60,676 nucleotides of DNA from a virus (taxonomy: Duplodnaviria > Caudoviricetes). Position 1 is the stretch's first letter. Each line of letters opens with the position of its first letter. Location: IMG/VR virus record IMGVR_UViG_3300021389_000023, positions 1 through 60,676 of that record. One strand, 5' to 3'. The notes under the pieces were generated by a model. It saw nothing but the letters and a program-made list of their open reading frames with translations. It was not told where the DNA came from and made no database searches. The translations under genes and the position numbers were made by a program. Positions 1 to 41,400 of this stretch are shown one piece after another.

Positions 1-127
1 GTACTTGCCATTGTCTAACCTCCAATGGTCATACAGATTCATATTTATATCTATCTCTACCTCTGCCGTTTTGTAGTACACACTACGTTGTAAAATTTTA
101 ACTTTCATATCTCTTTTCTTTTTAATT
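1..127. repeat. Terminal overlap block 1, identical to 60274-60400
   Basis: Direct comparison: 127 identical nt, diverging at 128 vs 60401. Confidence 0.97.
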
Positions 128-392
128 ATTCGTCTTTTACTTTTATATATGTTTTGTAGTACAAAAAATCTTCATAATCTTTTTCTTCAACCTCGTAGTA
201 AGCATAATCAACGATAGTTAAACCAAACCTAGTCCCCAACCTTTGCCCTTCTAACGGCATGAATGGAATTTCAGCTACGTAGTAAAGGTTTTCAGTTTCG
301 TAGCAATATTTCAGTCCATAAAAATCTGTCCAATTATCCTTGTGTTCTTCATACTTTTTAGGACTACATTCTTTTAAAATGTGAACTCTCAT
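126..392 (-). CDS. Hypothetical early protein (allele A of variable slot)
   Basis: 88-aa ORF; same start context (aattATG) as 60378..60566. Confidence 0.75.
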   Translation of the reverse strand: MRVHILKECSPKKYEEHKDNWTDFYGLKYCYETENLYYVAEIPFMPLEGQRLGTRFGLTIVDYAYYEVEEKDYEDFLYYKTYIKVKDE

Positions 393-502
393 AATTAATA
401 GTTGTTTGTTAGGTATGTATTAAGAGCCAACTGCTGAATAACACTACCCTTGTGTTGTTTTAAAATGTTCTTTACTCCTTCGTCCTCCAAAGCTATTGAA
501 GG
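389..502. repeat. Terminal overlap block 2, identical to 60563-60676
   Basis: Direct comparison: 114 identical nt up to the end of the contig. Confidence 0.97.
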
Positions 503-550
503 GTCTACTGTATGCTCATTGCAGAGCCATATGAAATCTGCTTTTGTCAT
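395..550 (-). CDS. Hypothetical 51-aa early protein (MTKADFIWLC...)
   Basis: Hand-translated; ATGA overlap with 547..828; tiles the operon. Confidence 0.65.
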   Translation of the reverse strand: MTKADFIWLCNEHTVDPSIALEDEGVKNILKQHKGSVIQQLALNTYLTNNY

Positions 551-828
551 GAGTACATCCAATTAAAGTCTTTACTTGATAGTTTTAATAGTTGCTCTCT
601 GTAAGACTTGATGTCGTTAGCTAGGGCTAGTACATCATTAAATTCACTCTCATACCCATCGTCCCAATCATCATCCTCAGCCTCGCACAAGGACTCATAT
701 AGCCCTTGTACTTGCCAATAGATGTCATCATGCAGTGCATCAAACTCATCCAAGTCATCAGCATAGCATAGGTCTCTTAATTCGTTTAGAAGGTTATACG
801 CCTTCATTCCTTTTTCTTTTGTTGTCAT
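547..828 (-). CDS. Highly acidic hypothetical protein
   Basis: 93 aa, D/E-rich; coupled to its neighbours. Confidence 0.75.
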   Translation of the reverse strand: MTTKEKGMKAYNLLNELRDLCYADDLDEFDALHDDIYWQVQGLYESLCEAEDDDWDDGYESEFNDVLALANDIKSYREQLLKLSSKDFNWMYS

Positions 829-989
829 CTTATTAAGTTTCTTAGTTGTGTTAAAAATTGTATAAAAGGTATCTGAGCATACATGAAGGACTCTGCCTCA
901 TCATACGTCTTGAATACCTCTACTCTACTTCCTCTTGGTGTTGGATAGTCTACTACCCAAAGACCACTGTTTAGTTTTTTAGTTGTCAT
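825..989 (-). CDS. Hypothetical 54-aa early protein (MTTKKLNSGLW...)
   Basis: Hand-translated; ATGA overlap with the next gene. Confidence 0.6.
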   Translation of the reverse strand: MTTKKLNSGLWVVDYPTPRGSRVEVFKTYDEAESFMYAQIPFIQFLTQLRNLIR

Positions 990-1285
990 ATCTTATTCTC
1001 TTTTGCATATTCAAAATCAACCCATCTGTCATCTTCAGAGTCGTAAAGAACTCCATCTGAAATTTTTACTCCGACAAACACATCATTCACTTCAGTGCCG
1101 TCCGAGTAAGTTGTATTCCAATTTATAGGTACACCTATAAAGTCTTTTAATTTTTCCATATTCCAATTGTTTTATAACCTCTCTGACTCATAAAGTCTAT
1201 GTAGTTGTTGAGGTGTTTCTCGTTATTAAATTCTTTGTTGACTACACTATACCTATTAGTAAAGTGGTTCTTCATTGAGATCTTT

Positions 1286-1540
1286 CTAGTTATCATAGTA
1301 CTCGTTTTTAAATTCCTCTCTTATTAACCTACCTTGCCTAGTGTTAAAGCCATAGCTATGTGTATGTAGGCTCGGTATAGGTGTCTGCTCCACGATGAAG
1401 TGAAACATATCAATTGCCTTGCATTTATATCTATTGGATATAACCTTGCACGTATCATTCAATCTATCACAGTCATGCTTAACATGACCATAGTTTTCCG
1501 TTAGGTATCTCTCAATACCTCTTGATGTTAATCGTTTCAT
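1286..1540 (-). CDS. Hypothetical early protein
   Basis: 84-aa ORF; TAATG coupling with the upstream gene. Confidence 0.7.
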   Translation of the reverse strand: MKRLTSRGIERYLTENYGHVKHDCDRLNDTCKVISNRYKCKAIDMFHFIVEQTPIPSLHTHSYGFNTRQGRLIREEFKNEYYDN

Positions 1541-1686
1541 TAGTTATCAATTTTATAGTTATAATTTGTTTTTCTTGATAGCATAATTCTGCCTATCGTC
1601 TCTTGGATGTATGGTCTTCCATAGTCATCAAACTCAATTCTGTCTCTGTCTTCATCTAAGAAGATGTAATCGTTTAAGTCTTTCAT
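1540..1686 (-). CDS. 48-aa protein, paralog copy 1 (MKDLNDYIFLDEDRDRIEFDDYGRPYIQE...)
   Basis: Hand-translated; near-identical paralog at 2982..3128 differs mostly by synonymous or conservative changes. Confidence 0.8.
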   Translation of the reverse strand: MKDLNDYIFLDEDRDRIEFDDYGRPYIQETIGRIMLSRKTNYNYKIDN

Positions 1687-1922
1687 AATTCTCTCTGTTT
1701 ATTCCACACATTTAATGTGTTGTTGATTAATGTTTCAATTTCATCAAATTTTTCATTGTAGAAATCGTGTGCTTCTTCTGTAAACATCATTACATTTTCT
1801 TGTCCTACTTCACTTGATTCTGCATAGGTATCTGCACCAATTTTTAACTCTGTAATCTGTGTAGCAATTTCATCTACACATTCTAGAAATCTACTATCGC
1901 TTACTAATATTTTTTCACTCAT
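1683..1922 (-). CDS. Acidic hypothetical early protein
   Basis: 79-aa ORF, tagaaattATG start. Confidence 0.7.
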   Translation of the reverse strand: MSEKILVSDSRFLECVDEIATQITELKIGADTYAESSEVGQENVMMFTEEAHDFYNEKFDEIETLINNTLNVWNKQREL

Positions 1923-1935
1923 AATTTCTAATGGT

Positions 1936-2157
1936 TTAATATTTTGACAGAATCTCTCTGTCCTTTTCTAATTGTTTTTTGCTCAAGACGTTCATAATTG
2001 GAGATGTCTTTTCATCCCAAGAATAAAACTGATTGTCATTTGTCTCGTCAATACATCTTATCGAGGTGACATTGTCTAAAAGAAAGTTATCTCTTTCGAT
2101 TACATCAAGAACTTGTCTGATGTCATCTGTCATGACATCTAATATAAATCTTGCCAT
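1936..2157 (-). CDS. Hypothetical early protein (likely start MARFILD)
   Basis: ORF track 1936..2244; the ATG at 2157 has an A-rich leader. Confidence 0.6.
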   Translation of the reverse strand: MARFILDVMTDDIRQVLDVIERDNFLLDNVTSIRCIDETNDNQFYSWDEKTSPIMNVLSKKQLEKDREILSKY

Positions 2158-2404
2158 TTTTAAATCGCCCATGTTAGTCGGAAGGGACTTTTTCCTAGTT
2201 AGATGTGGGATATGGTTTTGCTCCATACAAGTGCGTCTACGCATCCCACTTTTTTTAGTTAGGTGTAACCCTAATCTTGATTTTCGGTCTCTGTGTAAAA
2301 CTCTGCGTGTTCATGACAGTCACCACACAATGTAGTATATGACCATAATGGTCTTGCTCCACAACAATTGCTATAATTTGACATAATTCTAATAGTTTAA
2401 TTAA

Positions 2405-2650
2405 TTAATATTCGTCCAATGGATACAAATCTTCCCATCCATCTACTGCGTTATTGTTATATGTTCTTGGCTCTTTGTATGGCTGTTGTTCGTAAGGCTC
2501 TACCCAAAAATCTTGACCAAATTGTTCTCCCCATCTTTCGATGCATTCCTTTGCCTCTTGCTGTGCTTCTGCTGATGTTTTAAATCCATCCTCTTGCGTT
2601 ACACATAGACCAAATTCGTCTACTGTTACTACTTTGTACATTGTCTTCAT
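2405..2650 (-). CDS. Hypothetical early protein
   Basis: 81-aa ORF, tagaattATG start. Confidence 0.7.
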   Translation of the reverse strand: MKTMYKVVTVDEFGLCVTQEDGFKTSAEAQQEAKECIERWGEQFGQDFWVEPYEQQPYKEPRTYNNNAVDGWEDLYPLDEY

Positions 2651-2658
2651 AATTCTAT

Positions 2659-2976
2659 TTAATTTCTTTTGTTATACCACTCAATAAAGTCAACTACTGC
2701 TGCATACGTTGAATCAAATCTATTGTCTTTATCTACTACAATTATTTCTTCTGAATTTCTGTTGTCTATTATCTCAACAAAGGATTGAATTACACTTACA
2801 TTGTACTTAGCACATCCATACTCATCTTCAATACTTTCAATCTTATCTACAACTGGCATCAACCAATCCCAAGAGGTGTGATACTTAATACCTTTATTAC
2901 CTAGCATATAGTAATCAAATCCATATTCTTTAGAATACACGCCCATAAATTCTGCTATTAGTTTATTGTCTTCCAT
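2659..2976 (-). CDS. Conserved phage protein (NKLIAEFMG...YHTSWDWLMPVVDKIE; ABA-sandwich-like)
   Basis: Motif pattern recalled from Flavobacteriia phage proteins. Confidence 0.7.
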   Translation of the reverse strand: MEDNKLIAEFMGVYSKEYGFDYYMLGNKGIKYHTSWDWLMPVVDKIESIEDEYGCAKYNVSVIQSFVEIIDNRNSEEIIVVDKDNRFDSTYAAVVDFIEWYNKRN

Positions 2977-2981
2977 AATTT

Positions 2982-3128
2982 CTATTTGTTTATTGTGTAG
3001 TTATACTTGGTTCTTCTAGATAGCATCACTCTGCCTATCTTCTCTTGGATGTATGGTCTACCATAGTCATCGAATTCAATTCTGTCTCTGTCTTCTTCTA
3101 AGAAGATGTAATCGTTTAAGTCTTTCAT
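2982..3128 (-). CDS. 48-aa protein, paralog copy 2 (MKDLNDYIFLEEDRDRIEFDDYGRPYIQE...)
   Basis: Hand-translated; paralog of 1540..1686. Confidence 0.8.
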   Translation of the reverse strand: MKDLNDYIFLEEDRDRIEFDDYGRPYIQEKIGRVMLSRRTKYNYTINK

Positions 3129-3445
3129 AATTCTATTTTTTTATTGTGAGTTCCTAAATAATGGTCATGAATTATCTCATGAGCATATCGCTCAATATAA
3201 GTATCTGAGAAATCAGCATATCCATTTGTCATCTTACTCCAACTCCAATCATCCTTATCGTAATTAATCAGTTTCTGTATCACTTTTGTGTTGTAAATAA
3301 CATATGCTATTTCGGGGATTACATAACTTGCACTTTCTATGTTATCAGATGGCATTTCTTGATGAGGTTGTTCTAACCTTATTCTTTCCCAAGTTCTAGC
3401 AACATGAATCAATATTATGTTGTGTATTTCTCTATCGTTAATCAT
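3125..3445 (-). CDS. Hypothetical early protein
   Basis: 106-aa ORF, tagaattATG start. Confidence 0.7.
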   Translation of the reverse strand: MINDREIHNIILIHVARTWERIRLEQPHQEMPSDNIESASYVIPEIAYVIYNTKVIQKLINYDKDDWSWSKMTNGYADFSDTYIERYAHEIIHDHYLGTHNKKIEL

Positions 3446-3449
3446 AATT

Positions 3450-3758
3450 CTATTTGTTTATAATTGTTATGTCCGTGTACTTTATCTTGGCAGTGGTCTT
3501 GTTTCCTAACATATCAAAGGTGTATAGATACATGTAGTCTCTACCAAACTTTTCTATGTTCATACCTTTACCATAGTAAGTCTCGTTATCATATATAGAC
3601 TCTCCACTATCCGTTACGACTAGGTCTTTAAGGTGATATCCATACTCATTATCATCACCACCTCTTTTGTATGTGGTAACTCCCTTGATATTAATTTCTG
3701 CGTTTCCGTTTTTAATGATTTGCTTAATTGTTTTGTTTGCTTGTCTTTTAGTTTTCAT
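3450..3758 (-). CDS. Hypothetical early protein
   Basis: 102-aa ORF, aacaaacattATG start. Confidence 0.75.
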   Translation of the reverse strand: MKTKRQANKTIKQIIKNGNAEINIKGVTTYKRGGDDNEYGYHLKDLVVTDSGESIYDNETYYGKGMNIEKFGRDYMYLYTFDMLGNKTTAKIKYTDITIINK

Positions 3759-3769
3759 AATGTTTGTTA

Positions 3770-3934
3770 TTAGTCTAGTATACCGTATTCATCTACGATT
3801 ACTATGGTGTTATTAACTTTAGTTATACCTCTATCTAAGATGTTGTTTATCTTACATAGTTTATCAGTGTACTCTAGCTTACTCTTGTTTATGTATTTTA
3901 TTGCATCTAATGTGTTGTTGTATACTTCTACCAT
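3770..3934 (-). CDS. Hypothetical early protein (likely start MVEVYNN)
   Basis: Fills the gap; gaattATG start. Confidence 0.55.
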   Translation of the reverse strand: MVEVYNNTLDAIKYINKSKLEYTDKLCKINNILDRGITKVNNTIVIVDEYGILD

Positions 3935-4158
3935 AATTCTGATTTTTCTATTTGGTTTACCTCTCTTGATGGTAACTCTGACGTGCATTCCTCGTACTTG
4001 TCAAAAGTCTTCTCGCAAAGTCTGTCGTACTTTCTGTACATCTTATCGTCACCATTGTTGTCAGCTAAATCCCTTTGGTCATTAGCTTCATTGTACTTCT
4101 CTAGCCACTTAACTGCTCTGTTGACCATGGCTTGATGTTTCTTGTTAATTGCTTTCAT
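3928..4158 (-). CDS. Hypothetical early protein
   Basis: 76-aa helical ORF; ATGA coupling. Confidence 0.75.
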   Translation of the reverse strand: MKAINKKHQAMVNRAVKWLEKYNEANDQRDLADNNGDDKMYRKYDRLCEKTFDKYEECTSELPSREVNQIEKSELW

Positions 4159-4307
4159 TGTTGTTTTATTGAATAAATTTCTAATACTTCATATCCATTG
4201 TCTTCAAGGATATCTTTAATTTCGGCTTCATCATCTGTTGGTAGGTCATACATATTCATAGAATATGCACCACCTACAGCAGTGAACATGCATTGATAAT
4301 ACTTCAT
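4155..4307 (-). CDS. Hypothetical 50-aa acidic protein (MKYYQCMFTAVGGAYS...), first gene after the hammerhead
   Basis: Hand-translated; 19-nt start context identical to that of 4371..4685. Confidence 0.7.
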   Translation of the reverse strand: MKYYQCMFTAVGGAYSMNMYDLPTDDEAEIKDILEDNGYEVLEIYSIKQQ

Positions 4308-4322
4308 AATGTTTGTTGTTTA

Positions 4323-4372
4323 AGTTAAGACGCCTCTCGGCGTTTCGTCCTATATGGACTCATCAGTTAACT
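4323..4372 (-). ncRNA. Type I hammerhead ribozyme
   Basis: Minus strand reads AGUUAA-CUGAUGA-GUCC(AUAUA)GGAC-GAAA-CGCC(GAGA)GGCG-UC^UUAACU: complete core, three perfect stems, GUC cleavage triplet. Confidence 0.95.
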
Positions 4373-4685
4373 ATGCATCATAAACACAGCCAACCGCTGA
4401 GTTCTGCCATTCAAAGTATAGACCGTTCTTACCAAGAATACTCTGTAGTTTTTCACTACCCCAATAATCAGAGTTATAGTCTAACCAACCCTCTGCATCG
4501 TACTCTTCAGCATCAATCCAAAAGTAACCTCTGTAATCCATATACTTTCGGTCATTTTGCCACCATATCTTCACCGGGCAACCAAGTTTTTTTAATTCGA
4601 TAAACGCCTTGATTGACTCCGGAGTCATGTGGTTGATTTCTTCTTTACTGAATTCGTTGTTGAACATTTCTTTTGTGTAACGCAT
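4371..4685 (-). CDS. Hypothetical protein, first ORF of the early transcript
   Basis: 104-aa W/Y-rich ORF; its TAG overlaps hammerhead stem I. Confidence 0.8.
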   Translation of the reverse strand: MRYTKEMFNNEFSKEEINHMTPESIKAFIELKKLGCPVKIWWQNDRKYMDYRGYFWIDAEEYDAEGWLDYNSDYWGSEKLQSILGKNGLYFEWQNSAVGCVYDA

Positions 4686-4710
4686 AATGTTTGTTGTTTA
4701 AAATTAATAG

Positions 4711-4801
4711 TCATCTGATAGGGATTCGAACCCAATATCTCCACGACAATGGTGTAACATCTAGGTCATGCCTAGCCTCACTCTTTGTGCCGATTCAGAT
4801 G
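4711..4801 (-). ncRNA. tRNA-like cloverleaf with a non-canonical 5-nt anticodon loop and a long variable arm
   Basis: 7-bp acceptor CAUCUGA/UCAGAUG plus discriminator A; 19-nt D region; CUAGG(CAUGA)CCUAG arm; T arm GGG-UUCGAAU-CCC; no encoded CCA. Confidence 0.6.
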
Positions 4802-5160
4802 ATTTTAGTGACAATATCTCTACCATCGCTAACGATTTTGGTTTGGGTAAAATCTCTAACCCCACTAGTGACGGTTAACGCCATATTGCTTCTGTACACA
4901 CATCTTAAGATGTTAACGGTTTTGGTCTGCCGATTGCTCAATATTCTGATATATCCGATTCGCAAAGAATTCCTATCACTAGTCTGTGCCTACTACTTTT
5001 AATCAATCAACTGCATGTTGCAGTGTAGTAAACCATGTCATGAATTTGATACCAATTGTAGAATGAACATTAAGTTGCTGAGAATCAGCTAGTTAGCTTG
5101 TAATGTACTGAGAATCAGTGACATAGCCGAAGGAGTCGGCTGCTATGCTCGGTAATCAAA
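4802..5160 (-). ncRNA. Putative structured non-coding leader of the early transcript
   Basis: No minus-strand ORF in the track; many nested stems (TTTGAT(T)ACC/GGTATCAAA, AGCCGA/TCGGCT, TACTAC/GTAGTA, ACTGCA/TGCAGT, ACTAGTGA/TCACTAGT). Confidence 0.45.
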
Positions 5161-5192
5161 TCAATATTTTAAAGAACGTTTCACCTTTCGGT
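5161..5192 (-). promoter_or_regulatory. boxB-like hairpin plus boxA-like antitermination site
   Basis: ACC-GAAA-GGT then CGTTCTTTAAAATATTG just after the predicted start site; same order as in rrn leaders. Confidence 0.55.
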
Positions 5193-5202
5193 TACTTGAG
5201 GG

Positions 5203-5234
5203 CTAAACTATATATAAGTATTTGTTCTATCAAA
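5203..5234 (-). promoter_or_regulatory. Early promoter, Bacteroidetes type
   Basis: TTTG-N20-TAGTTTAG (one mismatch to TAnnTTTG) at the head of the early arm. Confidence 0.65.
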
Positions 5235-5240
5235 AAAACT

Positions 5241-5347
5241 CGATGAAATGCATATTTATTTGTTTAAGTGTACTCTCAATCGACCAAATGCATAAAACAC
5301 ATGACGAAATGCATCCGACAAAATGCACATAATATCGATGAAATGCA
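5241..5347. repeat. Five copies of YGAY(G/C/A)AAATGCA upstream of the early promoter
   Basis: Copies start at 5241, 5281, 5302, 5316 and 5336. Confidence 0.7.
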
Positions 5348-6025
5348 AAAAGTTACATATTTACATTAAAAATCAAATATTCAATCTATTGATATTCAGT
5401 AAGTTATGAAATGACTTCTCTCTCTGTATTTCGTTTAAATGCATGAAACGTCGGTGAGATGCTATTCCTCAGCTGAGCGTATCTTATGCATATTATATGT
5501 CACCGGTAACAACATATAGTTTTCTTTTATTGAAATTACATTTGCCATAGGCTACATCTATATGTGCTTTCCTAGGTGCAATCTTGCATAATATATATGT
5601 GCATAATATGGATGCTATTACATGTACTATATAGGTATGACAATACACCACAGAAAAATGCCAAAAAAATCAGACAAGCCAACGAAAATAAGACCCCCCA
5701 TAGCGTAAAAAAATCGGTTTTCTGTAGAGGGCAATCGTCGGCATTTATATATATAGCCCTTTTACTACGTGTATCTGAATAATTTTTACCTTTGGGTATG
5801 GAGATACATATAATAAATAGGATACCGACAGGTATTGCATTAGGATGGAGTTACTTCCCTCCAGAGGATAATTTTCCTGTTGAGGAGATAACCTTCCACT
5901 TAATTTTAATAGATATAAAGTTTTTATGGTGACACAAAATGGTGTGTCGATTTTATTTTCGTCATAGAATGAGACCAAAAAGAGAGGAGAGAAATATTTT
6001 TTTATGGCAGAAAATGTGTTTTTAC

Positions 6026-6210
6026 ACTAAAAATCGACACGCTTTCTAAAAATCGACACAGAATCGACACGGGTTAAAAAACTCTATATCAGCTACTTAG
6101 GTAGTGACCGTGTCGGAATGTCGATTTTAATCCTAGTTATAGAAAAAAAATAAAATATAAATACCCTTATATAATATATATATATATATAGGCATTTTTT
6201 AAATTGACAC
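6026..6210 (+). repeat. Origin-like element A: 3x AATCGACAC, IHF-like site, inverted iterons, AT/(TA)n tract
   Basis: Iterons at 6032, 6051, 6062; TATCAGCTACTTA at 6087-6099; GTGTCGGAATGTCGATTTT at 6110-6128; inverted homolog at 59133-59320. Confidence 0.8.
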
Positions 6211-6220
6211 ACATATTTTT

Positions 6221-6251
6221 TTTGTTGGTATAATATATTTTGTTATATTTG
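6221..6251 (+). promoter_or_regulatory. Bacteroidetes promoter for groEL
   Basis: TTTG-N19-TATATTTG, 24 nt upstream of the ATG. Confidence 0.75.
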
Positions 6252-6275
6252 TTATAATAAAAAAAATGTAATAAA

Positions 6276-7820
6276 ATGAATGATTTATTTTTTGACCAAG
6301 AGGGTCGTAAAAAACTTATTAGTGGTATCGAAAAGATATCTAGGGCTGTAAAGAGTACTTTAGGTCCATTAGGTAACACTGTCATACTAGAATCTCAGTT
6401 ACACACTAGGGGTTTGACAGTCACTAAGGATGGTGTAACTGTGGCGAAGGCTATTAACCTACAGGATCCTGTAGAGAACTTAGCAGTACGTATGGTAAAG
6501 GAGGCTGCTGATAGGACAGCCACATCTGCTGGCGATGGGACTACCACTGCGATTGTATTGACCGAGGCTATTGTTGTCGAGGGTATGCGTCTAATTCAGG
6601 AGAACCCTTCTATTAATGTCTCTGAACTTGTACGTGAGATGGTTTCTATATCTGATAGTGTTATAAAGATGCTAACCAAGAGATCGAAGAAGGTAACGGG
6701 TCGTACACTCAGGGATGTTGCCACCATATCTTCAAACAATGACAAGGACTTAGGTAAGCTTGTCAGCGACATCTATAAGGAGGTTGGCAAGGATGGTGTT
6801 GTGACTGTAGAGAACAGTCAGACCAGCGACACGTATTACGAGGTAACTAATGGTATAAAGATAGACAGGGGTCATACGAGTCGTTTATTTATCAATAACC
6901 AGAAGAATGACGAGTGTATACTAGACGATGTTTATATATTAGCTACTGACCTTGAGATAAACAGTATCCTAAACATAGAGAACATACTCAAGCCTATAAT
7001 TCAGGGCAATAAGAAGCTACTGATAATAGGTCAGTGCTCACAGAACGTTATAAACACGCTTGGTATGAACGTTGTAAAGAACGGACTAAAGCTTTGTAAC
7101 ATAATACCACCACAGTTTGGCTACAAGACTAAAGAACTTATGTCTGACATAGCTCTATCTGTAGGTGCGAAGTACTTCTCAGAGGACACAGGAGATGATT
7201 TAAGCTTGATTCAGCTGTCAGACCTAGGTCATGCCCAGAAGGTTGTAGTTAGTTCAACACAGACCGTTATAATACGTGACGACAATCGTTCTAACGATGT
7301 CGATGACCGTATTTCTGAGCTAAAGGAGGCTCGTGATCGTTCTCAGAAGAAGTCAGAGAGGGATTTCATAAATGACAGGATAGCTAGTCTATCTGGTGGT
7401 GTTGGTGTTGTTTATGTTGGCGGAGACTCTGACATAGAGCAGAAGGAGTTGTATGACAGGGTCGAGGACGCTGTCTGTGCTGTAAGGTCTGCGATTGAAC
7501 AGGGTATACTACCTGGTGGTGGTTCGGCACTCCTTCATTTTTCTGAAGACGTCATAAAGATGGATTCGGTAGCATCTCAAATTATTGGTATGGCTATGAA
7601 GGCTCCATTTAAGCAGATAGTTGAGAACGCTGGAAAGATGTATCCATGTGTGGCTAACGAGTTTGGTGAGGGATGGGATGTCAAGAACGATGAGTACGGT
7701 AATATGTACAAGATGGGTGTCATAGACCCAGCAAAGGTAACAAAGAACGCACTAAAGAATGCGGTATCCATTGCGACAACTATATTAACCACTAACGCAA
7801 TTATAACGATAAAAAGATGA
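6276..7820 (+). CDS. groEL: Chaperonin GroEL (Cpn60)
   Basis: TLGP, TKDGVTVAK, GDGTTTA and GVIDP motifs; 514 aa; no GGM tail. Confidence 0.97.
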   Translation: MNDLFFDQEGRKKLISGIEKISRAVKSTLGPLGNTVILESQLHTRGLTVTKDGVTVAKAINLQDPVENLAVRMVKEAADRTATSAGDGTTTAIVLTEAIVVEGMRLIQENPSINVSELVREMVSISDSVIKMLTKRSKKVTGRTLRDVATISSNNDKDLGKLVSDIYKEVGKDGVVTVENSQTSDTYYEVTNGIKIDRGHTSRLFINNQKNDECILDDVYILATDLEINSILNIENILKPIIQGNKKLLIIGQCSQNVINTLGMNVVKNGLKLCNIIPPQFGYKTKELMSDIALSVGAKYFSEDTGDDLSLIQLSDLGHAQKVVVSSTQTVIIRDDNRSNDVDDRISELKEARDRSQKKSERDFINDRIASLSGGVGVVYVGGDSDIEQKELYDRVEDAVCAVRSAIEQGILPGGGSALLHFSEDVIKMDSVASQIIGMAMKAPFKQIVENAGKMYPCVANEFGEGWDVKNDEYGNMYKMGVIDPAKVTKNALKNAVSIATTILTTNAIITIKR

Positions 7821-8074
7821 GAGCTATAAACAAGTATATAATAATAGAAAAAATTTCAGAGGAGATGAAGACCGAGTCAGGTCTTCTACTCTCTGGAGAG
7901 GATGCAAACGAGTTTCGTTACAGTAAGGGACGAGTTGTCAATCCAGGGACGAATGTTGAGACCGTTAAAGAGGGTGACGTAATTTACTACGACAAGTCAT
8001 CTGGTCACACAATGGTAATACAGGACAAGAAATTTACAATTATTCTAGAGAGGGACGTTGTTGTTGTCTTGTAG
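7817..8074 (+). CDS. groES: Co-chaperonin GroES (Cpn10)
   Basis: KTESGLLLS mobile loop and VKEGDVIYY; coupled to groEL. Confidence 0.9.
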   Translation: MRAINKYIIIEKISEEMKTESGLLLSGEDANEFRYSKGRVVNPGTNVETVKEGDVIYYDKSSGHTMVIQDKKFTIILERDVVVVL

Positions 8075-8570
8075 TTTTATTCATTTTTTTAATAGCTCGT
8101 CTGTACACCTTATCGGTGTATGGCGAGTTTTTTTTGAATATAGGGTTATGATCTGGTGACTCTGATATGTCCTCCTCTCCTGATAGTTTTTTATAGAAAC
8201 TGTTGATGAACCTCTTACCTTTGTAAGAAACCTCGTACAGTGCTGACTCTGATCCTTTTTTCTTTCTCCATTTTGATATCCAACCATCACGAAGCAGGTT
8301 CTCAAACCTTGTAACGTCCCATGAGAATATTTCCTCGTACTCATTGAAGTCTGTCCTCTTGAATAGTCTCTCGCTGTATAAGAAAAGTAGCATCTCTAGA
8401 TCTGCTAGACCTATTCCCTTACTTCTCTTAGCCCAGTACCTAACGACCCTTAAATATTTAAGGTAGTCATGTGTAGGCTGCTTCCTATCGTAGTTTATTC
8501 TAACTATATCGTTGTAGCCTTTAGTAGGAACCTTACGTTCATACTTTCGTCTCATCTTGCGTTTTTTCAT
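8040..8570 (-). CDS. Putative winged-HTH transcriptional regulator
   Basis: DLEMLLFL...LLRDGWI...LYEVSYKG MarR-like pattern; only minus-strand gene in the late arm. Confidence 0.6.
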   Translation of the reverse strand: MKKRKMRRKYERKVPTKGYNDIVRINYDRKQPTHDYLKYLRVVRYWAKRSKGIGLADLEMLLFLYSERLFKRTDFNEYEEIFSWDVTRFENLLRDGWISKWRKKKGSESALYEVSYKGKRFINSFYKKLSGEEDISESPDHNPIFKKNSPYTDKVYRRAIKKMNKTTRQQQRPSLE

Positions 8571-8575
8571 TATAA

Positions 8576-8602
8576 CAAATATAATAATTTTATATATCTT
8601 TG
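8576..8602. promoter_or_regulatory. Back-to-back divergent -7 boxes
   Basis: Minus-strand TATATTTG at 8576-8583; plus-strand TATCTTTG at 8595-8602. Confidence 0.65.
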
Positions 8603-8790
8603 CATAAAAATAATAAAGTTATGAAAAAGAGTAAACCATGCACGTCAAAAATTAAGAAGACTAGTTATGCTAAGAAAAAAAAGAAGTAAGACAGGCATTC
8701 AAGAGTTAGTTGAGTCTAAGAAGGCTGAAAAGATGGCGAAAGAGATGAATAAAGCCATGATGAAGGCTATTATTTACAATAAGATAAAGA

Positions 8791-9069
8791 ATGGGTCTAA
8801 GTAGATCGGCAAAATATTATCGGGATAATCCCGAAGCCAGGGCGAAGAAAAACGCTTATCAAAAAACATTTAATAAAAAGAAAAGTCAAAGTAAGAACAG
8901 GGTAAACCTGAATCGTCTGAACAGGCTCTTTGGAACGTACGGTAATGGGGATAATTTAGATGTTTCTCATCGATCTGGCAAGAAACCAAGACTTGAATCC
9001 CAGTCTAAAAACAGGGGAAGTAAGACAAACACACCTGGCGACAAGAGAGCTAGAGGTAGGAAGAAATAA
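8791..9069 (+). CDS. Small basic protein with a degenerate HNH-like motif (DVSH...S.NR)
   Basis: 92 aa, K/R-rich; motif recalled. Confidence 0.6.
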   Translation: MGLSRSAKYYRDNPEARAKKNAYQKTFNKKKSQSKNRVNLNRLNRLFGTYGNGDNLDVSHRSGKKPRLESQSKNRGSKTNTPGDKRARGRKK

Positions 9070-15412: not shown

Positions 15413-17419
15413 ATGCCAAGTCGCTTTTTAAATAATATAACAGTAAACGATGAGTATACACTGCCAAGCGCAGATGGCGCAGCTGATCAGATAATAACAA
15501 CGGATGGCGCAGGTCAGCTTAGTTTTGTAGATCAAAGCACAATAAGCGCGGGTAATGCCGAGCACGTTGTCATTTATGCAAAAAACACTTCAGGTTCACA
15601 AATAGACAAAGGAACACCTGTTTACATAACTGGTACTGTTGGTGCTACTGACACAGTTGAAATAGCTCCAGCTGACGCAGGAAACTCTTCTCATATGCCT
15701 GCGGTTGGACTTCTAGATGATACGCTAGCTAACAATGCTTTTGGATATGTTATTACTGGTGGTTTTATGGATAATATCACTACTGACCCAATTGATGGTG
15801 ATCAACCCGCTTCAAATGATACAGTTTATGTAAAAGTAGGTGGAGGACTTACATTAACAAAACCAACAGGACCAACTGGGCTTATACAAAATATTGCTAA
15901 AGTTGGTAAAGTATCTGGTGGAAACTCTGGATCACTTATTGTTTCTTCTATACTTAGATCTAACGACGTGCCTAACCTTACAACTGGTAAGATATGGGTT
16001 GGCGACGGTAATACTACAGAATCTACAGTTGTTCATTTAGACGAGACTAATGGTCGTATGGGAATAGGAACGACTAGTCCAAGTTACAAACTAGATGTAG
16101 ATGGTACTGCGAGAATCAATGATGCTTTTACTATTACTAAACCATCGCAAACTGGAGTAAGAGAGAGATTGTTAACAGCAAGTGTTTCTGATGCACCTGG
16201 TGATTTATTTTTTATAAACAACGGTACTATTGGCAATGGAAGTTTTGCTCCTGCTTTTGGTGGAATAATGGCAACTAGGAATGATTTATTTAGTTTAGGT
16301 TTTTCTGGATTAACTACATCTGCATTAGATACTACATCGGGTTTATTTGGTTTACTTGATTTTGCAGCAATGTTAACATCAAATTCAAGCGATCCTTTAA
16401 ATGGTACATTATCTAATGTAAGCAATAGAAAGCTTTTTACCTTTAGGGGGGTAAATTCTTCTGATTTATTCTTAACAATTTTCCCAGGAGGTAATGTTAA
16501 TATAGGAGGTACCACAGATGTAGGCTACAAACTAGATGTAGATGGAGTTATAAGAGGCGAACAATACTTAAGGTTGGCAGATACAAGTGGTACAAACCAA
16601 TTTAGTATTAGAGCTGAGTCTACTTTCGGTACACTTGACAACGGGTCTAAAACATTTAACTACATAGCTAGTAATCATTTGTTTTTAGTTGGATTTTCTG
16701 AAAAGATGCGCATTAACTCTAATGGTAATGTCGGTATTGGGACTACAAGTCCTGATGAGGCACTACATGTGTACCACCCTTCTGCAAACATAAATGCAAT
16801 AATAGAATCGGGCGATGCAAATGCGTATCTAGCGTTTAAAGATAGTTTAACCACCTCAAATGCTTCTGTATTTTTAGGTGCTAGTGCCAATGATATGACA
16901 TTTTTTGCAGGTGGTACAACAGAACGTATGAGAATAGAATCAACGGGGGATGTAGGCATTGGAACTAATAATCCAACTGAGAAGTTGCATATTTCTGATA
17001 ATGGAGCTACTACTGTTGTAATAGAAAGTACGGACACTGCTAAATCTACAAATGCTAATTTGAATTTTAAAACAGCAGGTGTAGTAACAGTAGAAATGAA
17101 AGCTCAAGCAGAGTCTGCTAATGCTACAGTTGGAGGTAGTTTTGTAATAGAAACTGCATCGGATGATATTGGTGGGACAAACACAAACCAACTTGCTCTA
17201 AGTAATGATGGTAGTGTTGGTATTGGTATAGGGGCTCCTAGAGCTCAGCTTGAAGTTGATGGGGGTGTTAAAATTGCGGATGACACAGACACAGCTTCTT
17301 CTGACAAAGTAGGAACACTAAGATATAGAACATCAGGAAATAATAGTTATGTAGACATGTGTATGCAAACAGGTGCATCAACATATGCTTGGGTAAATAT
17401 AGTACAAAACAATTGGTAA
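15413..17419 (+). CDS. Long tail fibre with GNVGIGT repeats
   Basis: Five G.(V/M).IG repeat units typical of Bacteroidetes phage fibres. Confidence 0.85.
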   Translation: MPSRFLNNITVNDEYTLPSADGAADQIITTDGAGQLSFVDQSTISAGNAEHVVIYAKNTSGSQIDKGTPVYITGTVGATDTVEIAPADAGNSSHMPAVGLLDDTLANNAFGYVITGGFMDNITTDPIDGDQPASNDTVYVKVGGGLTLTKPTGPTGLIQNIAKVGKVSGGNSGSLIVSSILRSNDVPNLTTGKIWVGDGNTTESTVVHLDETNGRMGIGTTSPSYKLDVDGTARINDAFTITKPSQTGVRERLLTASVSDAPGDLFFINNGTIGNGSFAPAFGGIMATRNDLFSLGFSGLTTSALDTTSGLFGLLDFAAMLTSNSSDPLNGTLSNVSNRKLFTFRGVNSSDLFLTIFPGGNVNIGGTTDVGYKLDVDGVIRGEQYLRLADTSGTNQFSIRAESTFGTLDNGSKTFNYIASNHLFLVGFSEKMRINSNGNVGIGTTSPDEALHVYHPSANINAIIESGDANAYLAFKDSLTTSNASVFLGASANDMTFFAGGTTERMRIESTGDVGIGTNNPTEKLHISDNGATTVVIESTDTAKSTNANLNFKTAGVVTVEMKAQAESANATVGGSFVIETASDDIGGTNTNQLALSNDGSVGIGIGAPRAQLEVDGGVKIADDTDTASSDKVGTLRYRTSGNNSYVDMCMQTGASTYAWVNIVQNNW

Positions 17420-38434: not shown

Positions 38435-41400
38435 ATGGACGATAAATATATAAAAGACATATACGACAATCTTGGAGGAGAATCTGTATTTGGTAATTAC
38501 AATGATTATTATTCATTAATAACATCTGACGACAGTTATATAAAGGATGTTTACGATTCTAAAGGAGAGTCTGTATTTGGGTCATATGATGATTTCGTTT
38601 CTCTTGTAAAAAAAAAAGACGATTCTGTCGTTTCTACTTCTCAAGAGGGCGTTACGGAATCCACTACCAAGGAAGAAGAGCAAACTATCTTATCGGATGC
38701 TTCAGGCGTAACAGTTGATACACCTACTTTAGATTACTATAAACCGAACAAGGTGGATTTACAAGGTGTAAACGAATACCTAGTTAGTATGGGTTTAGAT
38801 GAAGTAATAACCCCAGAAAAAGCAGATACGTCTATAGGTGATAATAATCAATACGAAAATATTAGAAACTATTTTTCAAAAAGAAATGAACCTGTAGATC
38901 TTAATGATAGAGGTGTATTAGAATCTATAAACAAAGGACTTATTTCAGATGAAGATTTAATTTTGGCTGGATACAAAGATCCTGAAGTAATTTCTACAAT
39001 AAAAAGACAGCCTACTCAAGAAGAGATTTTTAACGCCAAACAAAAAATATATTCAAGAAAGACTAAAACTTCAGATGAATTAGATTTCGCCATATCTCAA
39101 TTCAAACTAGACAAGCCTTATATTTATGAAGAAAAGTCAAGTGAAGATCTTAGCTTTATAGAATATAATTATAATTCAGAGGATCTTTCTGAAGCAAATG
39201 TAAATATAAAAGACTTTGACGGATTCTTAAATGAAAAGGGTTTGAAGCAGGATTTTATAAATAAGGCTAAAACTTTTGAGTCTACATACGGGTCTATTTA
39301 TGACCTTGATTTAGCTAAGGAAATGGAATTATCTAGAATGCTAGATCTTTATATTTCTGAGCAATCAAAGAGAGATATTAAGCAACAAAAATTACAGTAC
39401 GAAAAAGAACAAGGTATAGATCCAGATTTAACAGATGACAAATATTCTTTTAAATTGTCAGATAAAAATGTAAGTATACCTAAAATAAATGAGTACTACA
39501 AAAAAAACTATCCTAAGCTAACAGAAAAGCTTTTAGAGACAGATTCAAAAAACAGGGATTTATATAAAAAATATTTAGAAGGTGATTTTGGTAATTTAGA
39601 TTTTTTAAAAGAGTTTGGAGATCAAGGTTACGAAGGTTTTGAAACAAGACTACAAAACTTATCCGCTAGTTTTACTGATTTAATAGGTTTTTCTAACACT
39701 GCTCAGGGTATTAGATTTCAAATTGAGCAAGAAAAACTAGTAGATGGTGACAACTTATCTTACTCTTATGTTGGTGGAAAAAAAGTTAATATTGATGGTA
39801 AGAACTATATCGTAGACAGCAATAATCAGGTTTATGATGCCGACCTAAAGATACGTGTAACAAATTATATTGATGAAGATTTAAGAAATAATATAATAGA
39901 TAAGTCTGTGCAATTCGGCACTGAAGATTTTAGTATTAGCTCTAAAGGTATGGCTTTTGAAACATCAAACATTGTGGGTGATATGGTTGTTCAAATAGGC
40001 TTACAAGGAAGTTTTACAAGCGGTGGTAAAATAGTTTCTGCTATTTCCAATACAGACAAGGTAAGACGTGTATTAGGTTATGTTCCATCAAGTTTTAAAC
40101 AACTAACAAAAGGTTTGACAATAGATAGGGGAATAGCATCATCTATATTAGCTCAATCAACCTTAGGAGCTTCTTCTGGATATGAAGACACATTATTGGC
40201 TGCAAAAGAGGCTGGATTAAGTGATAAGGAATCAGTAGAGTTAGCTAGAGATGCTTCAATTCAAATGGCAAAACTTTATGCTCTTACCGCTCCAATATCA
40301 CCACAAACAAAAGCCACAGAAGCTATATTTGGTAAGATTAAAAATGAAACAATAAAAGACGCTATAAAAGCTTATAAGAATATAGGTAAAGAAGGTTTTA
40401 TCGAGATTTTTGAAAAAGCAGGAAGAAAAGCTACAACTTACTTTGAGGAGGGATTAAAGGAGGCTGGTCAAGAAAATATTCAACAGTCAGGAGAAACTCT
40501 TGTTGTAAATAAAAGAACAAATGAATTAGCTGGTGTAAAGCTAAAGGAAGACGAAGTTACTGTTGACAGCTTTATAAATACATCTCTGTTATCATTAACT
40601 TCTGGTTTTTTAATGCCTTTTGGTGGGGATTTAATAGGTGGTGCTAGAAGTAAATCAAAAAAACTACTAGGTATCGACGGTGTTGATAGAATTAAGGCAT
40701 TGAGATTACTATCTGAAAACCAAGAAAAACTAGAAAAATTATTAAAGGTTCAACAAAATAAAGGTATATACTCTGAATCTCAAGTAGCTGAATTACTTGG
40801 AGATGTTAGAGTTTACAAGGACAACGTGTCTAAGATACCTTCAGATTTGAAATCAGATACAGCTTTAGATGTTATATCTGACTTGGAAAGCATACGAAAA
40901 TTAGAAAATAAGAAAAAAACACTTGACCCTTCTTTTCACGAAGATATAGATAAAGAGATATCGGAGATAAGAGAGTCGATTAAACAAAAAACAAAGGAAG
41001 ATGCCATTCAAGAGCAAGAAACAAGAGATATACCTGATGCTGAACGAGCCGAAGGTGTACAAGAAATGGAAGAAGAAGTACGGGAGCCTGCTGTCGAAGA
41101 AACGGAAGAAGTAACAGAACAGTTATCCCCTGAGGAGAAAGCAGAAACAGTAAGTGAATTAATAAATAGACCAGTTACACTTACAAAACTTGGAGGTTTT
41201 GATTTAGATACCCCACTAGAAGGTGATATGTATGTAGATGGTCAGCGTATCGTTGTTGAAGATGCTAATGGAAATATTACAGATATAGGTAACGTTGACA
41301 AGATATCAGACAAGACATTAGATGAAATGGGTATCGAGCAACAAATGCCTAGTGTCACTACTACAGATGATGGTAATATTGAATTTGAAGGTAAAATATA

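What the first reader, a model, noticed from the sequence alone, without database searches (positions are those of the whole stretch)
4323..4372. Perfect type I hammerhead ribozyme between the first two early genes
Seen: the full CUGAUGA/GAAA/GUC core with stems I-III fully paired, on the coding strand. It overlaps the stop of 4371..4685, and the predicted cut (between 4329 and 4328) leaves a 21-nt leader before the ATG at 4307. Established: hammerhead cleavage gives a 2',3'-cyclic phosphate and a 5'-OH, and 5'-OH ends resist 5'-monophosphate-stimulated decay. Inference: self-processing of the early polycistron that tunes stability or translation of the downstream early genes.
Basis: partly seen in the sequence, partly recalled or inferred. 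Interest (0 to 1): 0.8.

Follow-up and report, generated by a model that had tools for sequence, protein, structure and literature searches.

The report
Hammerhead ribozyme between two phage genes
A genuine self-cutting hammerhead RNA sits between the first two small genes of an uncultured flavobacterial-type phage; it is an ordinary member of a large phage family that probably cuts long messages into single-gene pieces with short leaders.

Summary
Window 4372..4323 (- strand) is a complete type I hammerhead. Rfam RF00163 scores it 35.9 bits against a gathering score of 34 (E 2.5e-5). The core is consensus and all three stems are paired. The cut falls between 4329 and 4328, and a 21-nt leader runs to the ATG at 4307.

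It belongs to a large family. Twelve of 63 related loci carry copies, always on the small-gene strand. A pattern scan of IMG/VR gave more than 136 stretches. In that sample the stems pair and covary. The cut-to-ATG distance is 19-26 nt in 111 of 147 cases. The leaders carry the Bacteroidia-type A-rich start signal.

The most likely function is self-cleaving punctuation of a polycistronic message. Perreault et al. proposed this in 2011 and it has not been tested in this family. This scan has reported the same kind on other DNA.

Three features are specific to this window. A predicted hairpin from the end of gene 1 sequesters the ribozyme's 5' half (ddG +7.2 kcal/mol, second highest of 157). The 19-nt leader is duplicated exactly before gene 1. 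That copy lies behind a tRNA-like minihelix.

No cleavage evidence was obtained, and "early" is unverified.

The parts
4323..4372 (-). Type I hammerhead ribozyme. Stem I is 4372-4367 paired with 4328-4323. The CUGAUGA core is 4366-4360. The stem II hairpin is 4359-4347. GAA is 4346-4344. The stem III hairpin is 4343-4330. C17 is 4329.
   Evidence: RF00163 scores 35.9 bits over GA 34, E 2.5e-5. Own model R1 scores 65.3 bits. Sequence read.
4328..4329 (-). Predicted self-cleavage site, after C17 (4329) and before U1.1 (4328).
   Evidence: Position of GUC relative to stems III and I in the alignment. Inferred from hammerhead chemistry; no RNA end was observed.
4308..4328 (-). 21-nt leader of the 3' cleavage product. 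It has no G and is A-rich, with A at -3, -6 and -12 to -14 relative to the ATG.
   Evidence: The family leaders show the same A pattern. The positions match those named for F. johnsoniae in PMC6847099.
4371..4685 (-). Gene 1: a 104-aa ORF of no known family. Its UAG stop (4373-4371) overlaps the ribozyme's first two bases.
   Evidence: Homologs in L002 (78% identity), L003 and L004. No Pfam or PHROG match.
4155..4307 (-). Gene 2: a 50-aa ORF, the first gene on the 3' cleavage product.
   Evidence: There is an 86%-identical homolog in L002 at 3722-3871. There it overlaps the stop of the gene before it, with no ribozyme.
4360..4400 (-). Predicted alternative hairpin. Codons near the end of gene 1 (4396-4384, plus 4400-4398) pair with 4376-4364 and 4362-4360. 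That region is the stem I 5' strand and the CUGAUGA core.
   Evidence: It is the MFE fold. The active fold is 7.2 kcal/mol worse, and only 2 of 157 family members, the window included, reach that value. The value is reached by 26 of 1000 shuffles and 3 of 489 real 45-mers. The identical ribozyme in L204 has ddG 0.
4683..4701 (-). Second, exact copy of the 19-nt leader plus ATG found at 4305-4323, here in front of gene 1.
   Evidence: 2 exact copies, 0.07 expected. (family D7, spacing 378).
4711..4801 (-). tRNA-like minihelix upstream of gene 1. The acceptor-like stem is 4801-4795 with 4718-4712. The T-arm-like hairpin is around 4734-4719. A discriminator-like A sits at 4711. 25 nt remain to the ATG. 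Belonging to the system is a hypothesis.
   Evidence: Read and folded (z -0.93, weak). Not called by ARAGORN or the Rfam tRNA model. Similar elements at the same relative place in L023 and L026, with one compensatory acceptor change.

Best explanation
The element is a functional type I hammerhead ribozyme transcribed as part of the leftward polycistronic message of a Flavobacteriia-type podophage. Once stem I closes, the RNA cuts itself after C17, between 4329 and 4328.

The upstream piece carries gene 1. It ends in the compact stem II/III fold with a 2',3'-cyclic phosphate.

The downstream piece starts with a 5'-OH and a 21-nt, G-free, A-rich leader, followed by gene 2 and the genes after it. 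Its first 6 nt are the AU-rich stem I strand, which should fall away after the cut.

The host group does not use Shine-Dalgarno pairing; it relies on unstructured A-rich leaders. The ribozyme therefore most likely acts as an intercistronic insulator. It uncouples the start region of gene 2 from the structure and fate of the gene 1 RNA, and gives it a standard short leader.

Shown: membership of the family, intergenic placement, strand, spacing and leader composition.
Inferred: cleavage in vivo, and any effect on translation or stability.
For: (1) Family membership. RF00163 scores over its gathering score, with a consensus core and no mispair next to the core.

(2) Selection on structure.
- 24 distinct copies from relatives are 97.7% paired. 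13 of 15 pairs have changes on both sides. The covariation score is 0.849, against 0.174 shuffled and at most 0.131 when slid.
- In a collection-wide sample chosen by a pattern that does not impose stem II or III pairing, stem II has 4 or more pairs in 146 of 150 (about 12 of 150 after shuffling). Stem III has 5 or more pairs in 147 of 150.

(3) Placement.
- All 26 model hits lie on the small-gene strand.
- In 21 of 21 descriptor hits the next ATG-ORF starts 6-27 nt after stem I. In 17 of 21 a long upstream ORF stops at or inside the ribozyme's 5' edge.
- In the wider sample the cut-to-ATG distance is 19-26 nt in 111 of 147, with the mode at 21-22; the window has 21. 131 of 150 have an upstream ORF stop within -24..+5.

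(4) Orthologous junction. Three of the 4 genomes with a gene 1 homolog (window, L002, L004; not L003) have a type I hammerhead directly after its stop.

(5) Leaders. They have A at -3 (0.77), -6 (0.61) and -11 to -13 (0.72-0.84), G at 0.14 or less, and an SD-like core in 18 of 131. These are the positive determinants reported for Flavobacterium johnsoniae (PMC6847099, abstract and passages).

(6) Host. Terminase relatives are phages of Flavobacterium, Cellulophaga, Tenacibaculum and Maribacter.

(7) Precedent.
- Clustered prophage hammerheads cleave in vitro, and processing of long phage transcripts has been proposed. The HF1/HF2 hammerhead lies 13 nt before an early start codon, with a mapped 5' end nearby (PMC3088659, passages).
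- A type I hammerhead 7 nt before an ORF makes a subgenomic RNA in an RNA virus (PMC13725137, passages).
- The engineered RiboJ insulator raises expression of downstream genes (PMC6206723, abstract).
Against: - No RNA end or cleavage product was seen.
- In this window the thermodynamic model strongly prefers an alternative hairpin that ties up the stem I 5' strand and the core. The ddG is +7.2 kcal/mol and the stem I pair probability is 0.00. The identical ribozyme in L204 and the orthologous one in L002 fold correctly.
- The window's stem I has a single G-C pair.
- The element is dispensable in close relatives. L005 and L006 (GroEL 88% identity) have none. L008 keeps only a remnant without stem II and half the core.
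- L002 has a hammerhead before the homolog of ORF 2650..2405 where the window has none. Gene 2's homolog in L002 has no hammerhead before it.
- A tertiary loop II-stem I contact, needed for speed at cellular Mg2+, could not be shown.
- The effect of a 5'-OH on decay is host-dependent.
Confidence: 0.6

Rival explanations
1. Translation-gated ribozyme. The ribozyme is real, but in this genome it is held off by the hairpin formed with the last codons of gene 1. It cuts only when ribosomes translating gene 1 cover the hairpin's 5' arm (4396-4384). Separation of the downstream message would then be coupled to translation of gene 1.
For: - The alternative hairpin is the MFE at every co-transcriptional length tested.
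- The ddG of 7.2 kcal/mol is the second highest of 157 family members.
- It is reached by 26 of 1000 shuffles of the upstream 45 nt and by 3 of 489 real 45-mers from the same gene cluster.
- The 5' arm lies wholly inside the gene 1 coding sequence.
- Compared with L002, two synonymous differences (GCG GUU against GCA GUG) change the pairing.
Against: - This is a prediction from nearest-neighbour energies only, which do not model the hammerhead's tertiary fold.
- The alternative hairpin has 5 G-U pairs in 13.
- It is not conserved at the orthologous L002 site (ddG 0).
- 26 of 1000 is only modest significance.
- A ribosome sitting on the stop codon would also cover the ribozyme's 5' half.
Confidence: 0.15
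2. Portable cassette or passenger. The hammerhead-plus-leader unit is mainly a repeated, recombination-prone boundary that moves small genes between phages. This would be comparable to the promoter-stem-loop cassettes of T4-type phages (recalled, not checked here). In this genome it contributes little to expression.
For: - A 50-nt ribozyme identical to the window's lies in L204 between unrelated genes.
- In L002 the gene 1 homolog is flanked by two copies identical over their first 30 nt.
- Presence differs at orthologous junctions, and L008 holds a dead remnant.
- The small-gene cluster is highly mosaic.
- Gene 1 plus the ribozyme is bounded by exact 19-nt direct repeats.
Against: - Strong purifying selection on pairing and core, with compensatory changes.
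- Strict strand and spacing rules relative to start codons.
- Both are unexpected for a mere recombination site. The two roles are not exclusive.
Confidence: 0.15
3. 3'-end maker for gene 1. The main role is to give the gene 1 message a defined, structured, cyclic-phosphate 3' end that resists 3' exonucleases. The downstream 5'-OH fragment would be the disposable product, as with glmS in Bacillus. The ribozyme would then lower, not raise, expression of gene 2 and the genes after it.
For: - The stop codon abuts or lies inside the ribozyme in most family members (47 of 150 use the TAA in stem I, 20 the TGA of the core).
- After the cut, stems II and III stay on the upstream piece.
- The glmS 5'-OH product is degraded by RNase J1 (PMC3328962, passage).
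Against: - The conserved distance to the next ATG and the optimised A-rich leader point to the downstream gene being expressed from the cut RNA.
- The host's RNases are unknown.
Confidence: 0.08
4. Chance motif with no ribozyme activity.
For: The Rfam score is only 1.9 bits over the gathering score. The active fold is disfavoured in context.
Against: - E 2.5e-5 for the whole window against all families.
- 65 bits with the family model.
- An identical copy elsewhere.
- Orthologous copies with compensatory changes.
Confidence: 0.02

Closest known systems
Type I hammerhead ribozymes of phage and prophage intergenic regions (Rfam RF00163; Perreault et al. 2011, PMC3088659)
   Same: Same core, same three-helix topology with open stem I, and a long stem III. 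Same intergenic position flanking single small phage genes, often in several copies per genome. Same proposed role of cutting long phage transcripts into gene-length mRNAs.
   Different: Nothing essential. This subfamily has a very regular anatomy: stem I of exactly 6 bp in 144 of 155, stem II of 4 bp with a 5-nt loop, and a cut 19-26 nt before the ATG. It is tied to Bacteroidia-type leaders. I did not see these regularities in the passages I read, but I did not read the paper's alignments or supplements.
HHphage of haloviruses HF1/HF2 (Perreault et al. 2011)
   Same: [quoted passage not shown] A transcript 5' end was mapped within 3 nt of the cut.
   Different: That one is a structurally variant hammerhead of archaeal viruses with a high Mg2+ requirement. 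This one has a canonical core and lies between two ORFs.
Type I hammerheads in 5'-UTRs and intergenic UTRs of fungal RNA viruses (PMC13725137, NAR 2026)
   Same: A type I hammerhead with a long helix III fills a short intergenic UTR. It cuts a few nt before the next start codon and yields a separate translatable RNA.
   Different: Those are RNA genomes in eukaryotic hosts, with cap-independent initiation. Here it is a DNA phage and bacterial SD-independent initiation.
RiboJ and related engineered ribozyme insulators
   Same: They work alike in design. A self-cleaving hammerhead placed just upstream of a translation start region removes upstream context and standardises the 5' leader (PMC6206723, abstract).
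   Different: RiboJ is synthetic, derived from a plant satellite RNA ribozyme plus an added hairpin (recalled), and used behind promoters. The phage element is natural and sits between cistrons. This is an analogy of function, not kinship.
RAGATH-1 hammerhead (Rfam RF03152)
   Same: Three L002 copies give partial matches: 34.8, 28 and 26.9 bits.
   Different: All are far below the gathering score of 56.3. The window's copy gives no match at E<=1. Not a member.

Membership tests
Hammerhead ribozyme type I (Rfam RF00163) | Score at or above the curated gathering score of the covariance model, over the full model length | tested here: met
   35.9 bits against 34, model positions 1-45 of 45, E 2.5e-5. 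The margin is small (1.9 bits).
Hammerhead ribozyme type I (Rfam RF00163) | Conserved core: C3 U4 G5 A6 N7 G8 A9, G12 A13 A14, A15.1-U16.1, H17 (criteria quoted from PMC3088659 methods) | tested here: met
   CUGAUGA at 4366-4360, GAAA at 4346-4343, U16.1 at 4330, C17 at 4329.
Hammerhead ribozyme type I (Rfam RF00163) | Three helices around the core, no mispair next to the core, stem I open (type I topology) | tested here: met
   Stem I has 6 bp, stem II 4 bp, stem III 5 bp, all standard pairs. The 5' and 3' ends are in stem I (alignment, descriptor).
Hammerhead ribozyme type I (Rfam RF00163) | Helices supported by covariation among relatives | tested here: met
   13 of 15 pairs have changes on both sides and 97.7% of cells are paired in 24 distinct copies. 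The alignment is fitted to the model, so it leans towards pairing. An independent check used a pattern that imposes no stem II or III pairing: 146 of 150 and 147 of 150 were paired.
Hammerhead ribozyme type I (Rfam RF00163) | Tertiary contact between loop II and distal stem I that gives fast cleavage at cellular Mg2+ | tested here: inconclusive
   Loop II type and the mismatch beyond stem I are perfectly associated. U-first loops go with A/A, A/U or A/G (149 cases); the AUAUA loop goes with U/U (6 cases). The 6 are one lineage. Loop II-flank complementarity is only slightly above permuted controls for the 5' flank (42 against 27.0, sd 3.8) and below them for the 3' flank.
Hammerhead ribozyme type I (Rfam RF00163) | Site-specific self-cleavage giving 2',3'-cyclic phosphate and 5'-OH | not testable with these tools
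   Only contigs of RNA libraries were available. None bridges or ends informatively at 4328/4329.
RAGATH-1 hammerhead (RF03152) | Gathering score of the model (56.3 bits), including the 5' hairpin | tested here: not met
   No match in the window at E<=1. L002 copies score 26.9-34.8 bits.
Intercistronic processing ribozymes of phage operons (functional class proposed by Perreault et al. 2011) | Lies between co-oriented ORFs of one transcription unit, on the coding strand | tested here: met
   That it is one transcription unit is inferred from tight spacing and overlapping genes. No promoter or terminator was mapped.

The most novel reading that the evidence does not exclude
In phages of Bacteroidia, which cannot use Shine-Dalgarno pairing, two kinds of RNA-processing element may be used interchangeably to cut out standard short leaders. 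These are the 6-bp-stem-I hammerhead and a stripped-down tRNA-like minihelix, presumably cut by RNase P or Z. The leaders are about 21-25 nt long, G-poor and A-rich, and would load ribosomes from a free 5' end.

The window shows both side by side. The tRNA-like element leaves 25 nt before gene 1. The hammerhead leaves 21 nt before gene 2. The last 19 nt, ATG included, are identical. In this genome the hammerhead would in addition be gated by translation of gene 1, through the competing hairpin. If so, these elements would be natural ribozyme insulators that set translation starts, not merely RNA cutters.
Probability: 0.2. Interest if true: 0.6.

Novelty: new member of a known kind. Interest (0 to 1): 0.3.

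Why it matters
What hammerhead ribozymes do in phages has been an open question since 2011. This copy adds little by itself.

The family it belongs to is abundant and has strict rules. Stem I is 6 bp, the cut lies about 21-22 nt before the start codon, and the leaders are Bacteroidia-type and A-rich. At least one cultured member exists: Flavobacterium phage vB_FspP_elemoE_6-9C, at 16304-16361 on the - strand, currently covered by a probably spurious ORF annotation.

That makes the insulator or leader-setting hypothesis directly testable in a laboratory phage-host pair.

For annotation, these elements are missed or overwritten by false small ORFs.

Tried and rejected
- **RNA evidence.** The look-up of sequencing runs listed 5 rows on record as RNA, all with small shares. 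Laying X1-X4 (contigs only) on window 1-9000 gave sparse pieces of depth about 2. No record has 31 or more letters on both sides of 4328/4329. X1 record 5 covers 4320-4491. X3 record 20 matches only 4328-4367 with unlike flanks, so it is another phage's hammerhead. This says nothing for or against cleavage or expression.
- **Nucleotide searches of cultured phages.** Megablast of 3000-6000 against cultured phages found nothing. blastn of the ribozyme region found only short chance-level hits.
- **Second ribozyme in the window.** None was found with Rfam at E<=1 or with the family model with filters off.
- **tRNA upstream of gene 1.** ARAGORN found none, even with relaxed settings. The Rfam tRNA models gave no match at E<=10. 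The fold z-score is -0.93. It is at best a minihelix look-alike.
- **Structured RNA in 4686-5200.** z -1.19. Rejected.
- **Leftward promoter.** The sigma-70 scan found fewer sites than in shuffles. The recalled Bacteroidetes motif was found only before GroEL.
- **First viral contigs pattern.** It was mis-specified (13 instead of 11 free bases in stem II) and returned 10 other hammerheads. Corrected.
- **Script.** It had an index error in the stem III constraint. Its numbers are void and replaced.
- **Functions of flanking proteins.** No Pfam family. Only two weak PHROG hits of unknown function, further down the cluster.
- **RAGATH-1.** The term does not occur in the main text of PMC5737381, and its supplements were not read.

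Full report
**1. The observation**

On the - strand, window 4372..4323 reads as a textbook type I hammerhead:
- a 6-bp stem I (4372-4367 with 4328-4323)
- CUGAUGA (4366-4360)
- a 4-bp stem II with a 5-nt loop (4359-4347)
- GAAA
- a 5-bp stem III closed by a GAGA loop (4343-4330)
- C17 at 4329

Rfam's cmscan of the whole window gives one match over a gathering score. It is RF00163 at exactly these coordinates: 35.9 bits against 34, E 2.5e-5, full model length. Nothing else of note appears at E<=1. The same model rings in 0 of 14 control genomes.

The cut falls between 4329 and 4328. The stop codon of ORF 4371..4685 overlaps the first two bases. The 3' product has 21 nt before the ATG at 4307.

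**2. The genome**

The window is a whole IMG/VR virus record of 60,676 bases, rated 100% complete. It encodes:
- a GroEL-like chaperonin (6276-7820, +)
- terminase, portal and virion proteins, and a 3588-aa protein, on the + strand
- helicase, primase-helicase and exonuclease on the - strand at 50-58 kb

Terminase relatives among cultured phages infect Flavobacterium (68 records), Cellulophaga (15), Tenacibaculum (2) and Maribacter (1). The best hit is an uncultured podovirus at 73% identity. A Flavobacteriia host is therefore likely.

The ribozyme lies in a run of about 20 small, tightly packed or overlapping - strand ORFs (4685 down to 126). This run starts after a 1.6-kb gene-free stretch that separates it from the divergent GroEL gene. 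ORF 4685..4371 is the first of this run and ORF 4307..4155 the second. That they are early genes is a reasonable guess from layout, but no call shows it. Neither protein matches a Pfam or PHROG family.

**3. Relatives**

Loci were fetched with gene 1 (3 loci) and with GroEL (60 loci).

- A simple descriptor found 20 further type I hammerheads in these loci.
- A covariance model built from 14 of them found 26 hits at E<=1 in 764,642 bases. They lie in the window and in 12 loci at E<=1e-3. Every one is on the strand of the small genes.
- The closest GroEL relatives, L005 and L006 (88% identity), have none.
- L008 has a 35-nt remnant that keeps stems I and III but lacks stem II and half the core.
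- L002 has the closest gene 1 homolog (78% identity) and carries seven copies in 3 kb. One lies directly before and one directly after that homolog.
- L004 also has one directly after its homolog, and L003 has none. The junction is thus occupied in 3 of 4 genomes.
- Between the window and L002 the orthologous ribozymes differ by compensatory changes in stems II and III.
- Other junctions differ between genomes. L002 has a hammerhead before the homolog of window ORF 2650..2405, where the window has none. Gene 2's homolog in L002 overlaps the preceding gene without any ribozyme.

**4. Structure under selection**

On the model-fitted alignment of 24 distinct copies, 97.7% of cells pair. 13 of 15 pairs show changes on both sides. 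The covariation score is 0.849, against 0.174 in shuffles and at most 0.131 when partners are slid. That alignment leans towards the model. The earlier 14-sequence count is biased because the descriptor demanded pairing.

I therefore used an independent sample. A pattern fixing only the core and four stem I bases was scanned over IMG/VR. Among 150 distinct matches:
- stem II has 4 or more contiguous pairs in 146 (about 12 expected after shuffling the interior)
- stem III has 5 or more pairs in 147

**5. Rules of placement**

In the 21 descriptor hits, the next ATG-ORF begins 6-27 nt after stem I in all 21. A long upstream ORF stops at or in the 5' edge in 17.

In the IMG/VR sample:
- The distance from cut to ATG is 19-26 nt in 111 of 147, with the mode at 21-22. 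The window's 21 nt is typical.
- An upstream ORF stop lies within -24..+5 of the ribozyme in 131 of 150. It often uses the TAA inside stem I (47) or the TGA of the core (20).
- Stem I is exactly 6 bp in 144 of 155.
- The leaders have A at -3 (0.77), -6 (0.61) and -11 to -13 (0.72-0.84). G is at most 0.14 at any position. An SD-like core occurs in only 18 of 131.

These are the determinants reported for Flavobacterium johnsoniae, whose ribosomes ignore Shine-Dalgarno sequences (PMC6847099, abstract and passages). The window's leader has A at -3, -6 and -12 to -14 and no G.

**6. Most likely mechanism**

The element most likely cuts the leftward polycistronic RNA between genes 1 and 2. The upstream piece keeps stems II and III and a cyclic phosphate. 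The downstream piece starts with a 5'-OH, sheds the weak AU-rich stem I strand, and presents an unstructured A-rich leader whose length just covers the start region.

This amounts to an intercistronic insulator. The closest engineered analogue is RiboJ, which raises expression of insulated genes (PMC6206723, abstract). Natural precedents:
- clustered prophage hammerheads shown to cleave in vitro and proposed to process long phage transcripts
- the HF1/HF2 hammerhead, 13 nt before an early start codon (PMC3088659, passages)
- type I hammerheads before ORFs of fungal RNA viruses, with RACE-confirmed ends (PMC13725137, passages)

A 2019 review still calls the purpose undefined (PMC6765202, passages). 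Cleavage and its consequences remain inferred here.

**7. What speaks against simple constitutive cleavage in this window**

With 45 nt of upstream context, the minimum-energy fold pairs codons near the end of gene 1 (4396-4384) with the stem I 5' strand and the core (4376-4360). This holds at every co-transcriptional length tried. The active fold is 7.2 kcal/mol worse and the stem I pair probability is 0.00.

Across 157 family members the median penalty is 0.2 kcal/mol, and 106 are within 1 kcal/mol. Only 2, the window included, reach 7.2.

The value is reached by 26 of 1000 shuffles of the upstream 45 nt and by 3 of 489 real 45-mers from the same gene cluster. The identical ribozyme in L204 and the orthologous one in L002 have no penalty.

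This may mean a slower ribozyme. It may mean one that fires only when ribosomes on gene 1 cover the competing arm. Or it may be a limit of the energy model. I rate the gated reading at 0.15.

**8. Mobility**

- The window's 50-nt ribozyme recurs base for base in L204 between unrelated genes. Four further contigs carry it with one compensatory change in stem III.
- These six form a minority class: loop II AUAUA, a U/U mismatch beyond stem I, and an A-U outer pair. The majority class has a U-first loop with an A/A mismatch. The association is perfect (6 and 149 of 155), but the six are one lineage, so it is only a hint of a tertiary contact.
- In the window, gene 1 plus the ribozyme is bounded by exact 19-nt direct repeats of the leader (4701-4683 and 4323-4305). 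Two copies were found where 0.07 are expected.

Together with the gain and loss at orthologous junctions, this fits hammerhead-leader units acting also as recombination boundaries for small genes.

**9.

The claim that a 5'-OH protects RNA is not general. The 5'-OH product of the glmS ribozyme is degraded by RNase J1 in B. subtilis (PMC3328962, passage). The host's RNase set is unknown.

**10. RNA data**

Five runs on record as RNA held small shares of the region. Laid as contigs, they give thin, patchy cover and no record that bridges or informatively ends at the cut. Nothing follows from this.

**11. Comparison and novelty**

This is a member of RF00163 and of the known class of phage intergenic hammerheads. 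It is not a RAGATH-1 hammerhead.

Earlier notes of this scan describe the same kind on other DNA. One describes a flavobacterial-type phage with two hammerheads, 23-nt leaders and a stripped-down tRNA look-alike (e1-3488195). Another describes a family between early genes of Bacteroidota phages (e1-5932362). I read these after making my own counts. They agree with them but are not independent evidence.

The family-level regularities and the cultured member are useful leads. That member is Flavobacterium phage vB_FspP_elemoE_6-9C, 16304-16361 on the - strand, 46.8 bits, under an annotated 35-aa + strand ORF. I searched papers and saw no description of the spacing rule in the passages read. I did not read the supplements or alignments of PMC3088659, where it may be evident.

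**Verdict:** a real feature, a new member of a known kind, of modest interest.

Noticed in passing
window 4711-4801 (-); L023 about 4480-4570 (-); L026 about 4560-4660 (-): A tRNA-like minihelix lies just upstream of the first gene of the leftward cluster. It has a 7-bp acceptor-like stem plus a T-arm with a UUCGAAU loop, and 22-25 nt remain to the ATG. ARAGORN and Rfam do not call it. L023 and L026 differ by a compensatory change in the acceptor stem, and the L026 fold has z -4.56. L060 has a true tRNA-Met on the same strand of the same upstream side. It may be a processing signal that sets the leader of gene 1.
   Followed up: partly
window 4683-4701 and 4305-4323: An exact 19-nt direct repeat (leader plus ATG) stands in front of genes 1 and 2, 378 nt apart. 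It brackets gene 1 plus the ribozyme like a cassette.
   Followed up: partly
L008 5353-5387 (-): Dead hammerhead remnant in a close relative (GroEL 79% identity). Stems I and III and the leader are kept. Stem II and part of the core are deleted.
   Followed up: partly
NC_055854.1 16289-16396 (L217 2790-2897): In cultured Flavobacterium phage vB_FspP_elemoE_6-9C, an annotated 35-aa + strand ORF (gp65) covers a - strand hammerhead (16304-16361, 46.8 bits) in an otherwise all-minus gene run. The ORF is probably spurious.
   Followed up: partly
L004 2773-2828 (+): A type III hammerhead-like match (RF00008, 38.1 bits, below GA 48.5, E 2.9e-5) lies upstream of the gene 1 homolog, which is followed by a type I hammerhead. 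Two topologies flank one gene.
   Followed up: no
window 5071-5127, 5240-5445, 5943-6084: The 1.6-kb gene-free stretch between the divergent gene sets holds several repeat families: a 15-nt unit four times (5240-5445), a hairpin-forming unit twice (5071-5127), and a 9-10-nt unit three times plus one inverted copy (5943-6084). They may be operator or origin repeats. The stretch 4686-5200 of the region does not fold as a stable RNA (z -1.19).
   Followed up: partly
window 6221-6251 (+): The only match in window 1-9000 to the recalled Bacteroidetes promoter consensus (TTTG, about 20 nt, TAnnTTTG) lies 25 nt before the GroEL start. None was found for the leftward cluster.
   Followed up: no
window 2271-2384 (-): A 37-codon Cys-rich ORF (two CxxC-like pairs) fills what looked like a 160-nt gap in the small-gene run. 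It is below the ORF-list cut-off used.
   Followed up: no
L002 2976-3000, 3371-3395, 5462-5486 (+): One hammerhead subclass in L002 is followed by a small GAAA-tetraloop hairpin inside the leader before the ATG. The other subclass has a plain A/U leader. Ribozyme and leader seem to be duplicated together.
   Followed up: no
window 38435-49201 (+): A 3588-aa ORF with only fragmentary PHROG matches of unknown function. It may be a giant virion or ejected protein.
   Followed up: no
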